The notes under the pieces were generated by a model. It did no database searches and was not told the origin of the DNA. It was given only the letters and a program-made list of their open reading frames with translations. The position numbers and the translations under genes are program-made. From Escherichia coli (lineage in GTDB: Bacteria; Pseudomonadota; Gammaproteobacteria; Enterobacterales; Enterobacteriaceae), in NCBI RefSeq assembly GCF_045037415.1, contig NZ_CP173438.1: DNA of 64,000 nt. One strand, given 5' to 3'. Positions 52,125 to 52,376 of this stretch are shown in pieces. Positions within the stretch are counted from its first letter, which is position 1, and each line of letters begins with the position of its first letter.

Positions 52125-52376
52125 ACACAGTATGGCCCGGAAGACATTATTTCGGGCCGTATTGTTTTTCTTGTCATTATGCCCATAAATAAACGAGCCT
52201 GTACTCTGTTAACCAGCGTCTTTATCGGAGAATAATTGCCTTTAATTTTTTATCCGCATCTCTAACTAATTATCGAAAGAGATAAATAGTTAAGAGAAGG
52301 CAAAATGAATATTATCAGTTCTGCTCGCAAACGAATTCCCGTACACTGAACTCTCTGGCTCACTGAGGGCACCATC

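What the first reader, a model, noticed from the sequence alone, without database searches (positions are those of the whole stretch)
52305..52349. 14-codon mini-ORF with strong RBS immediately upstream of yjbD
ATG at 52305 preceded by AGAGAAGG encodes MNIISSARKRIPVH and stops 27 bp before the yjbD start. This could be a leader peptide or translational-coupling element, or be fortuitous.
Basis: seen in the sequence. Interest (0 to 1): 0.2.

Follow-up and report, generated by a model that had tools for sequence, protein, structure and literature searches.

The report
Chance mini-ORF over the yjbD promoter
The 14-codon ORF upstream of E. coli yjbD exists in the sequence, but it is an unconserved chance ORF that lies upstream of the mapped yjbD mRNA start; only its last codons are conserved, because they overlap yjbD's core promoter region.

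Summary
The sequence facts are correct. ATG 52305 opens MNIISSARKRIPVH, the TGA ends at 52349, and yjbD starts 27 nt later in the same frame. The "strong RBS" is only moderate (-5.1 kcal/mol), and ORFs of this kind arise by chance (about 5% of shuffles of this spacer; six comparable ones in the window).

- **Transcript:** A published dRNA-seq map of K-12 (identical sequence here) places a high-confidence primary 5' end 26 nt upstream of the yjbD ATG. That is window 52351, 2 nt after the mini-ORF stop, so the ORF is not on the yjbD mRNA.
- **Conservation:** About a quarter of complete E. coli genomes read AGG instead of ATG. Sister Escherichia species have a stop at codon 10 or unrelated sequence. 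Of 80 Enterobacteriaceae loci, two keep a recognisable but truncated version.
- **What is conserved:** A 13-nt block, TTGCCGTACACTG, contains the -10-like hexamer TACACT (52342-52347). The hexamer is present in 80 of 81 sequences, at a fixed 27-30 nt from the ATG in 79. The codons CCC GTA CAC TGA overlap it, and the "stop" is TGG in 29 of 81.
- **Mechanism:** There is no attenuator, no terminator and no structure hiding the yjbD ribosome-binding site.

Verdict: fortuitous ORF, low interest.

The parts
52305..52349 (+). The 14-codon mini-ORF (MNIISSARKRIPVH, TGA stop). It is in frame with yjbD. Judged fortuitous.
   Evidence: Sequence. Identical in K-12 and not annotated there. Start codon lost in a major E. 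coli allele. Truncated or absent in other Escherichia and other genera.
52293..52300 (+). AGAGAAGG, the claimed Shine-Dalgarno. The effective pairing is AAGG/GAAGG, 4 nt from the ATG, and is of moderate strength.
   Evidence: -5.1 kcal/mol duplex with the anti-SD. 64% of long-ORF starts are as good or better. Its 5' end overlaps the 3' arm of an inverted repeat.
52336..52348 (+). Conserved 13-nt block TTCCCGTACACTG (family consensus TTGCCGTACACTG). It covers the last four codons of the mini-ORF and is the only conserved part of it.
   Evidence: Position-anchored information profile over 80 distinct sequences: 1.1-2.0 bits across most of the block, and at most 0.7 bit at every position further upstream.
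52342..52347 (+). TACACT, a -10-like hexamer (TAnnnT) and the proposed -10 element of the yjbD promoter.
   Evidence: TA[C/G]ACT is present in 80 of 81 sequences, and 27-30 nt before the yjbD ATG in 79 of them. The mapped TSS lies just downstream. Caveat: the TSS is the 4th (+/-1) nt after the hexamer, shorter than the canonical 6th-8th.
52351..52351 (+). yjbD transcription start (+/-1 nt), transferred from K-12 dRNA-seq.
   Evidence: Romero et al. 2014 (PMC4681348), Table S2: Class I TSS RVS_(I)-4229680 in U00096.2 coordinates. The offset of 1977 to NC_000913.3 was checked with the lysC and pgi TSSs and promoters. The region is identical between K-12 and the window.
52365..52369 (+). GAGGG, yjbD's own Shine-Dalgarno, 7 nt before the ATG.
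   Evidence: -6.1 kcal/mol. Conserved as GAGGG/GGAGG across genera.
52377..52649 (+). yjbD, a 90-aa DUF3811 (PF11656) protein of unknown function.
52127..52165 (+). lysC intrinsic terminator (16-pair stem followed by a T-run). It separates lysC transcription from the mini-ORF.
52209..52236 (+). Consensus-only sigma-70-like site TTAACC-16-AATAAT. This is the only candidate promoter that could put the mini-ORF on an mRNA. It is unsupported.
   Evidence: 9 of 12 matches; 1 site found against 0.7 expected in shuffles. No TSS is listed between 4229680 and the lysC TSS in Romero Table S2. The sequence is not shared by the second E. coli allele.
52263..52292 (.). Imperfect inverted repeat TAACTAATTATC-N6-GATAAATAGTTA, centred about 73 nt upstream of the TSS. 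Possible regulator site; function unknown.
   Evidence: 12-nt arms, 92% complementary. The core TTATC-N6-GATAA is kept in both E. coli alleles.

Best explanation
The mini-ORF is a fortuitous open frame in the A+T-rich DNA just upstream of the yjbD promoter. It is not a leader peptide or a coupling element.

yjbD is transcribed from its own promoter. The mRNA starts at about window 52351, 2 nt after the mini-ORF's stop codon, and has a short leader of about 26 nt with its own GAGGG ribosome-binding site.

The only conserved part of the mini-ORF is its last four codons (CCC GTA CAC TGA). They are conserved because they overlap the yjbD core-promoter block TTGCCGTACACTG, which contains a -10-like hexamer TACACT. 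They are not conserved because they encode anything.

Shown: the position of the primary 5' end in K-12; the conservation pattern; the loss of the start codon and premature stops in relatives; the lack of RNA structure. Inferred: that TACACT is the -10 element, and that the ORF is untranslated or inconsequential.
For: 1. **Transcript.** dRNA-seq of E. coli BW25113 (LB, mid-exponential) lists a Class I TSS at 4229680 (U00096.2). Class I means enriched by TAP treatment (a primary 5' end) and sitting at a leading edge of RNA-seq coverage. The next reverse-strand TSS upstream is that of lysC. With the coordinate offset validated on the lysC and pgi promoters, this maps to window 52351, after the stop at 52349. 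K-12 and the window are identical from about 52270 to 52420.

2. **Within E. coli.** 3702 genomes are at least 99% identical to the window allele. About 1334 are at least 99% identical to a second allele, and 117 more are 95-99% identical. In the genome read for that allele, the start codon is AGG and no in-frame ATG/GTG/TTG replaces it.

3. **Genus Escherichia.** The ORF has a stop at codon 10 in E. whittamii and sp. E1V33. In sp. MOD1-EC7003 it has AGG plus TAA. E. albertii and two divergent E. coli-labelled genomes have unrelated sequence there.

4. **80 Enterobacteriaceae loci.** No conserved upstream ORF is present. The 'stop' reads TGA in 45, TGG in 29, TCG in 3, TAA in 2 and TGC in 1. 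Information content collapses immediately upstream of the 13-nt block; the mini-ORF ATG lies 37 nt upstream of the hexamer, in unconserved sequence.

5. **The hexamer.** TA[C/G]ACT is present in 80 of 81 sequences, and at a fixed 27-30 nt from the ATG in 79, regardless of which gene lies upstream: lysC, a transporter gene, or a 3.3-kb island.

6. **No mechanism available.** The leader folds no better than shuffles (z = +1.8 and -1.0). There is no terminator between the ORF and yjbD, and yjbD has its own SD.

7. **Chance level.** 4.7% per spacer in shuffles, and 6 comparable ORFs in the window.

8. **Annotation.** No gene is annotated there in the K-12 reference record, and no Rfam family matches.
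Against: - No ribosome-profiling data for this locus could be retrieved. The Weaver and Meydan tables are not held, and the stored Stringer table is truncated and does not reach this locus. Translation from a rare longer transcript is therefore not excluded.
- The TSS comes from one dataset, one condition and a related strain.
- The TSS is only the 4th (+/-1) nt after TACACT, whereas sigma-70 promoters normally start at the 6th-8th (my knowledge of promoter geometry). The -10 assignment is therefore not secure.
- In the Enterobacter-type loci a conserved hairpin begins inside the hexamer. This implies transcripts there that start further upstream.
- The ATG and SD are kept in about 70% of E. 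coli and in two sister species, although the ORF length is not.
Confidence: 0.85

Rival explanations
1. A regulatory upstream ORF (leader peptide or coupling/re-initiation ORF). It would be translated on a longer transcript, either lysC terminator read-through or a condition-specific promoter such as TTAACC-16-AATAAT at 52209-52236. Its translation would modulate yjbD expression in strains carrying the ATG allele.
For: The ORF has a usable SD (-5.1 kcal/mol) in an unstructured, A/U-rich context. It ends 27 nt before yjbD in the same frame. A consensus promoter-like site exists upstream. The ATG and SD are retained in about 70% of E. coli and in E. whittamii and sp. E1V33. The TSS dataset covers only one growth condition.
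Against: - No TSS was detected upstream of the ORF, apart from that of lysC, which is followed by a 16-pair terminator.
- The promoter-like site is at chance level (1 found against 0.7 expected) and is absent from the second allele.
- About 25% of E. coli lack the start codon, and sister species truncate the ORF to 9 codons, which moves the stop 15 nt further from yjbD.
- There is no attenuator or SD-masking structure for ribosomes to act on.
- There are no runs of a regulatory codon.
- yjbD has its own SD and its own TSS.
Confidence: 0.08
2. An independent, lineage-specific 14-aa small protein gene whose peptide has its own function.
For: It is an intact ORF with an SD, identical in 3702 genomes. 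Many E. coli sORFs detected by ribosome profiling are short and unannotated (Stringer et al. preprint).
Against: - No conservation of length or sequence, even within the genus.
- The start codon is absent in a major allele.
- It is not annotated in the K-12 reference record.
- The peptide sequence was not found in any searchable paper.
- No supported promoter.
- The conserved bases fit a DNA motif rather than a codon pattern: the stop position varies between A and G while the preceding bases are invariant.
Confidence: 0.03
3. An N-terminal extension of YjbD made by read-through of the in-frame TGA, giving a 114-aa protein.
For: The mini-ORF is in frame with yjbD. A 114-aa product, MNIISSARKRIPVHWTLWLTEGTI..., exists in a protein database (P0003).
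Against: The DNA behind P0003 still has TGA, so the product is a gene-calling artefact in which TGA was read as Trp. The frame relation is lost in E. whittamii and sp. E1V33, which have a 1-nt deletion. The TSS is downstream of the ORF.
Confidence: 0.01

Closest known systems
Attenuation leader peptides of amino-acid operons (trpL, hisL, pheL, thrL, ivbL)
   Same: A very short ORF (14 codons, as in trpL) with an SD, lying shortly upstream of a structural gene on the same strand.
   Different: It lies upstream of the mapped TSS. It has no run of regulatory codons. It is not followed by alternative terminator/antiterminator hairpins or any terminator. It is not conserved even within E. coli.
Translationally coupled upstream ORFs, whose termination next to or over a downstream start opens a masked RBS or allows re-initiation
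   Same: Same strand, with the stop fairly close to the next start (27 nt).
   Different: The gap is larger than typical overlapping or adjacent coupling. No structure masks the yjbD SD. yjbD has its own SD and its own TSS. The stop position is not conserved (TGG in 29 of 81; it shifts 15 nt upstream in sister species).
Non-conserved sORFs of 'pervasive translation' found by Ribo-RET/Ribo-Api in E. coli (Stringer et al. preprint, 10.1101/2021.07.02.450978)
   Same: [quoted passage not shown]
   Different: For this ORF no translation evidence could be obtained. The available TSS evidence suggests it is not even on an abundant mRNA.
Sigma-70/sigma-S type -10 promoter element (TATAAT; the sigma-S-preferred form is TAYRCT, from my knowledge)
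   Same: TACACT keeps the key T-12, A-11 and T-7 positions. It is followed by a conserved G. It sits at a fixed distance from the gene in 79 of 81 sequences. A primary 5' end maps just downstream.
   Different: The mapped TSS is only the 4th (+/-1) nt after the hexamer. There is no conserved -35. The two C's are invariant, which is more than a generic -10 requires, so a regulator site or RNA-level role may be superimposed.

Membership tests
Ribosome-mediated attenuation leader peptide | The ORF lies within the transcribed leader, between the TSS and the structural gene | tested here: not met
   The Class I TSS at U00096.2 4229680 maps to window 52351, 2 nt after the ORF's stop. No other TSS lies upstream until that of lysC.
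Ribosome-mediated attenuation leader peptide | Tandem or clustered codons for the regulatory amino acid | tested here: not met
   MNIISSARKRIPVH has only the pairs II and SS and the near-pair R-K-R. There is no enrichment pointing to one amino acid, and yjbD has no known pathway link.
Ribosome-mediated attenuation leader peptide | Alternative antiterminator/terminator hairpins overlapping or following the ORF | tested here: not met
   No terminator-like site lies between 52305 and 52377. Folding energy is not better than shuffles (z = +1.78 for 52290-52400; z = -1.01 for 52255-52400).
Ribosome-mediated attenuation leader peptide | Conservation of the ORF among related species | tested here: not met
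   The start codon is lost in roughly 1,330-1,450 E. coli genomes. The ORF is 9 codons or absent in other Escherichia, and absent in 78 of 80 Enterobacteriaceae loci.
Translational-coupling upstream ORF | Stop codon overlapping or within a few nt of the downstream SD or start | tested here: not met
   The stop ends 27 nt before the ATG and 15 nt before the SD GAGGG. The stop is not conserved.
Translational-coupling upstream ORF | The downstream RBS is masked by structure, or lacks its own SD, so that it depends on upstream translation | tested here: not met
   yjbD has its own SD (-6.1 kcal/mol). Only a weak 5-bp stem (CUCUC/GAGGG) is predicted, and it is not significant.
Expressed small-protein gene (sORF) | Ribosome initiation or footprint signal, or detected peptide | not testable with these tools
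   The Ribo-RET and Onc112 tables are not held or are truncated. The peptide string is absent from searchable full texts.
Expressed small-protein gene (sORF) | Annotation in the K-12 reference record | tested here: not met
   NC_000913.3 lists no feature between yjbD and lysC.
Sigma-70-family promoter (for the conserved TACACT block) | A -10 hexamer of TAnnnT type, conserved in position relative to the gene | tested here: met
   TA[C/G]ACT is present in 80 of 81 sequences, and 27-30 nt before the ATG in 79. It is invariant in the information profile, though it was the anchor for that profile.
Sigma-70-family promoter (for the conserved TACACT block) | Primary transcript 5' end 6-8 nt downstream of the hexamer | tested here: inconclusive
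   The TSS maps to the 4th (+/-1) nt after the hexamer. In the same dataset, pgi maps to the 5th and lysC to the 6th-9th nt after their hexamers.
Sigma-70-family promoter (for the conserved TACACT block) | A -35 element at 16-18 bp spacing | tested here: not met
   The E. coli sequence has TTCTGC at 17 bp (2 of 6 matches). Across genera there is only weak signal at -24 to -21, at most 0.7 bit. The simple scan did not call this promoter.

The most novel reading that the evidence does not exclude
In the roughly 70% of E. coli that carry the ATG allele, the mini-ORF is a young, lineage-specific ORF. It would be translated on rare lysC read-through transcripts or transcripts from an unmapped upstream promoter. 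Its termination 27 nt before the in-frame yjbD start would allow re-initiation, giving a minor lysine- or condition-linked input into YjbD synthesis that the AGG-allele strains lack.
Probability: 0.05. Interest if true: 0.25.

Novelty: not a real feature. Interest (0 to 1): 0.05.

Why it matters
It matters little biologically. The result removes a false lead and shows why: the A/T- and purine-rich DNA just upstream of promoters readily yields ATG-plus-SD look-alikes. Here the apparent "conserved end" of the ORF is really the yjbD core promoter.

The useful by-products are two. One is a defined, highly conserved 13-nt promoter-region block and a short leader of about 26 nt for yjbD, a DUF3811 gene of unknown function. 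The other is the observation that E. coli carries two old alleles of this region, one of them linked to a 3.3-kb island.

Tried and rejected
- **Ribosome-profiling evidence.** The peptide string is absent from all searchable full texts. The Stringer et al. supplement holds no hit, but it uses BL21 data and is truncated in storage; it does not even contain the lysC, yjbD or rluF starts. The Weaver et al. supplement is not held and the mBio version is not held. Meydan et al. is not held. All of this is inconclusive rather than negative.
- **Other TSS tables.** Cappable-seq, ROSE, Conway 2014 and Kim 2012 have nothing stored for this locus. Thomason 2015 is not held. Only Romero 2014 gave a usable entry.
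- **Literature on E. coli yjbD.** Almost all 'yjbD' papers concern B. subtilis spx. No regulation data were found.
- **P0003, a 114-aa 'fusion' of the mini-ORF and YjbD.** I first read it as a natural TGA-to-TGG variant. Its DNA keeps TGA, so it is a gene-calling artefact.
- **A '36-aa conserved small ORF' (MCIATLKEID...) upstream of yjbD in Citrobacter and Phytobacter.** The sequence 5' of its ATG is also conserved across these loci, which suggests it is the tail of a longer upstream gene rather than a small ORF.
- **Other sigma factors for the conserved block** (sigma-54, sigma-32, sigma-E, sigma-28). I compared it with their consensus sequences from memory. None fits across genera.
- **Rfam.** Nothing in the region except the known lysine riboswitch upstream of lysC.

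Full report
**Locus.** The window is Escherichia coli. The 601 bases around the finding are 100% identical to many complete genomes, and RefSeq annotates lysC, yjbD (DUF3811) and rluF there. In window coordinates:
- lysC: 50775-52124 (+)
- lysC intrinsic terminator, 16-pair stem plus T-run: 52127-52165
- yjbD: 52377-52649 (+, 90 aa)
- rluF: 52650-53522 (-)

**Observation.** The sequence facts are right. ATG at 52305 opens ATG AAT ATT ATC AGT TCT GCT CGC AAA CGA ATT CCC GTA CAC TGA, which gives MNIISSARKRIPVH, with the stop at 52347-52349. AGAGAAGG is at 52293-52300, and 27 nt separate the stop from the yjbD ATG. The ORF is also in frame with yjbD (72 nt).

The "strong RBS" is overstated. The best duplex with the anti-SD is -5.1 kcal/mol, weaker than that of yjbD (-6.1) or lysC (-7.2). 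64% of long-ORF starts in the window are as good or better, and so are 12.8% of all ATGs.

The feature is not beyond chance. 4.7% of 3000 dinucleotide-preserving shuffles of the 211-nt spacer contain an equal mini-ORF. The roughly 8.1 kb of crude non-coding DNA in this window holds six distinct mini-ORFs of 10-40 codons with an equal or better SD.

**Is it on the mRNA?** K-12 MG1655 is identical to the window from about 52270 to 52420. Its reference annotation has nothing between yjbD and lysC.

Romero et al. 2014 (PMC4681348) mapped primary 5' ends in BW25113 grown in LB to mid-exponential phase, using U00096.2 coordinates. Their Table S2 lists RVS_(I)-4229680. Class I means the site is enriched by TAP treatment (a primary 5' end) and sits at a leading edge of RNA-seq coverage. 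The next reverse-strand TSS upstream is 4231561-4231564, flagged as a known TSS; a forward TSS at 4231744 is also flagged as known.

I used an offset of 1977 between U00096.2 and NC_000913.3. The value rests on my memory of the old pgi coordinates, so I checked it in two ways.
- 4231564 falls at window 50467, the 6th nt after the -10 of TTGACA-16-TTTATT (50434-50461). Shimada et al. give exactly this promoter for lysC.
- 4231744 falls at 50287 on the minus strand, the 5th nt after TACAAT of the pgi promoter ATCACA-18-TACAAT.

There are no indels between K-12 and the window in that interval.

With this offset, the yjbD TSS lies 26 nt upstream of the ATG, at window 52351 (+/-1). That is 2 nt after the last base of the mini-ORF's stop codon. 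On this evidence the mini-ORF is not part of the yjbD primary transcript. It could be transcribed only by read-through of the lysC terminator, or from an undetected promoter. The one consensus-type candidate, TTAACC-16-AATAAT at 52209-52236, is at chance level (1 found against 0.7 expected).

**Conservation within E. coli.** A 121-nt query across the ORF finds 3702 genomes at 99% identity or more, 166 at 95-99%, and 1441 at 90-95%. The third group corresponds to a second allele. Querying with that allele finds 1334 genomes at 99% or more and 117 at 95-99%.

In the genome read for this allele (FDAARGOS_772), the start codon reads AGG (CAAAGGAATATT...), and no in-frame ATG, GTG or TTG replaces it. 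In that genome a 3.3-kb island lies between lysC and yjbD. So about a quarter of complete E. coli genomes most likely lack the ORF altogether, yet keep yjbD and the roughly 150 nt upstream of it.

**Conservation beyond E. coli.** I fetched 80 yjbD loci from different Enterobacteriaceae species.
- A recognisable homologue of the mini-ORF exists in only two of them, and in both codon 10 is a stop: Escherichia sp. E1V33 (MNIISSART) and E. whittamii (MNLIGSARK).
- Both also carry a 1-nt deletion that breaks the frame relation to yjbD.
- Escherichia sp. MOD1-EC7003 has AGG plus an internal TAA.
- E. albertii and two divergent E. coli-labelled genomes have unrelated sequence there.
- No other genus has a corresponding ORF, and 21 loci have no ATG-initiated ORF at all in the 200 nt upstream.

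**What is conserved.** All of the conservation sits in the ORF's last 13 nt. The hexamer TA[C/G]ACT is present in 80 of 81 sequences, and 27-30 nt before the yjbD ATG in 79 of them. The surrounding block is TTGCCGTACACTG (TTCCCGTACACTG in E. coli, 52336-52348).

Anchored on the hexamer, information content is 1.1-2.0 bits across most of the block. It falls to at most 0.7 bit at every position further upstream. The mini-ORF's ATG lies 37 nt upstream of the hexamer, in that unconserved zone.

The base that completes the stop codon is free to vary: TGA in 45, TGG in 29, TCG in 3, TAA in 2 and TGC in 1. This is the pattern of a DNA or RNA motif, not of codons.

The block keeps its distance from yjbD whatever lies upstream. 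In E. coli that is the lysC terminator. In the second allele it is the island. In Enterobacter-type genomes it is the stop codon of a 314-aa membrane-protein gene only about 20 nt away. In Pluralibacter and Yokenella it is the lysC stop about 12 nt away.

**Interpretation of the block.** TACACT keeps the T-12, A-11 and T-7 positions of a -10 element and is followed by a conserved G. From my knowledge it also fits the sigma-S-preferred form TAYRCT. A primary 5' end maps just downstream. I therefore read it as the yjbD -10 element, inside a core-promoter block.

Four caveats apply.
- The mapped TSS is only the 4th (+/-1) nt after the hexamer, whereas the 6th-8th is canonical. In the same dataset pgi maps to the 5th. 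The start region is CTCTCT, where 5'-end heterogeneity is conceivable; that last point is speculation.
- No -35 element is conserved.
- The two invariant C's suggest more specific recognition than a generic -10 requires.
- In Enterobacter-type loci a conserved RNA hairpin starts inside the hexamer.

None of these caveats affects the verdict on the mini-ORF.

For attenuation there is no terminator or alternative-hairpin system between the ORF and yjbD. The RNA folds no better than shuffles: z = +1.78 for 52290-52400 and z = -1.01 for 52255-52400. There is no run of regulatory codons.

For coupling, the stop lies 27 nt from the start and 15 nt from yjbD's own SD (GAGGG, -6.1 kcal/mol). Only an insignificant 5-bp stem touches that SD. 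Rfam finds nothing here; the only real hit in the neighbourhood is the lysine riboswitch upstream of lysC at 50487-50683.

**Dead ends.** A 114-aa "fusion" protein in the database (P0003) looked like natural read-through. Its DNA still has TGA, so it is a gene-calling artefact. A "36-aa conserved ORF" upstream of yjbD in Citrobacter looks like the tail of a longer gene, because the sequence 5' of its ATG is also conserved. Ribosome-profiling tables could not be obtained for this locus.

**Verdict.** The mini-ORF is a real string of codons but not a real functional element (confidence about 0.85). It lies in the -46 to -2 region of the yjbD promoter, upstream of the mapped mRNA 5' end. It lacks its start codon in about a quarter of E. 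coli genomes, and is truncated or absent in every other species examined. It occurs at the frequency expected by chance. The residual possibility is translation from rare longer transcripts with a small regulatory effect; I put this at about 0.05-0.1, and it would be of modest interest even if true.

Noticed in passing
window 52166-52300; L083/L086 (NZ_CP041002.1, FDAARGOS_772): E. coli has two deeply diverged alleles (about 91% identity over 121 nt) of the region upstream of yjbD. In the one genome read for the minority allele (allele total roughly 1,330-1,450 of 5,426 genomes), a 3.3-kb island lies between lysC and yjbD. The island encodes a zeta-toxin-family protein, a nucleotidyltransferase-domain protein and a slipin-family protein. 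Escherichia sp. MOD1-EC7003 shares this allele type, so the polymorphism appears old.
   Followed up: partly
L055-L080 subset (e.g. L056 1971-1999), Enterobacter/Lelliottia/Leclercia/Pseudescherichia-type yjbD loci: Directly after TACA, an 11-bp perfect hairpin (CUGAAGCCUCC-loop-GGAGGCUUCAG) encloses the yjbD Shine-Dalgarno sequence. For L056 the minimum free energy is -28.7 kcal/mol, z = -7.7. The stem is conserved while the loop varies across 16 species, with one compensatory A-U to G-C change and G-U wobbles. In Silvania confinis it is followed by a T-run, like a terminator. It could be an RBS-masking regulatory hairpin or thermosensor, or the upstream gene's terminator.
   Followed up: partly
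window 52263-52292: An imperfect inverted repeat, TAACTAATTATC-N6-GATAAATAGTTA (12-nt arms, 92% complementary), is centred about 73 nt upstream of the yjbD TSS. Its 3' arm runs into the claimed RBS. The core TTATC-N6-GATAA is kept in both E. coli alleles. It may be a regulator-binding site. No regulator is known to me.
   Followed up: no
window 52326-52341: CGCAAACGAATTCCCG, inside the mini-ORF and overlapping the core promoter, resembles the left half of a PurR operator (ACGCAAACGTTTGCGT). The consensus is from memory, not from a tool. It is not conserved in E. whittamii or sp. E1V33, so it is probably coincidental.
   Followed up: no
window 52649/52650; L001 1728-1859 (K-12): In this strain the convergent yjbD and rluF stop codons abut, with a 0-nt gap. 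K-12 has an extra 132 bp there containing a G+C-rich palindromic repeat-like sequence (CCCCTCACCC...GGGGCGAGGGG). This is probably why only 3786 of 5425 genomes cover at least 80% of the 601-nt query. It also generates C-terminally 'extended' YjbD gene calls in databases (P0005, P0015).
   Followed up: partly
window 53786-54817: A 343-aa sugar-binding (SorC-type) transcriptional regulator follows rluF in this strain. In K-12, pepE is the neighbour, so this is a strain-specific insertion next to the locus.
   Followed up: no
window 50434-50683: The lysC promoter TTGACA-16-TTTATT (50434-50461), the published TSS cluster (mapping to 50467-50470) and the lysine riboswitch (Rfam RF00168, 99.5 bits, 50487-50683) are all intact. 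These are known features, used here only to calibrate coordinates.
   Followed up: yes
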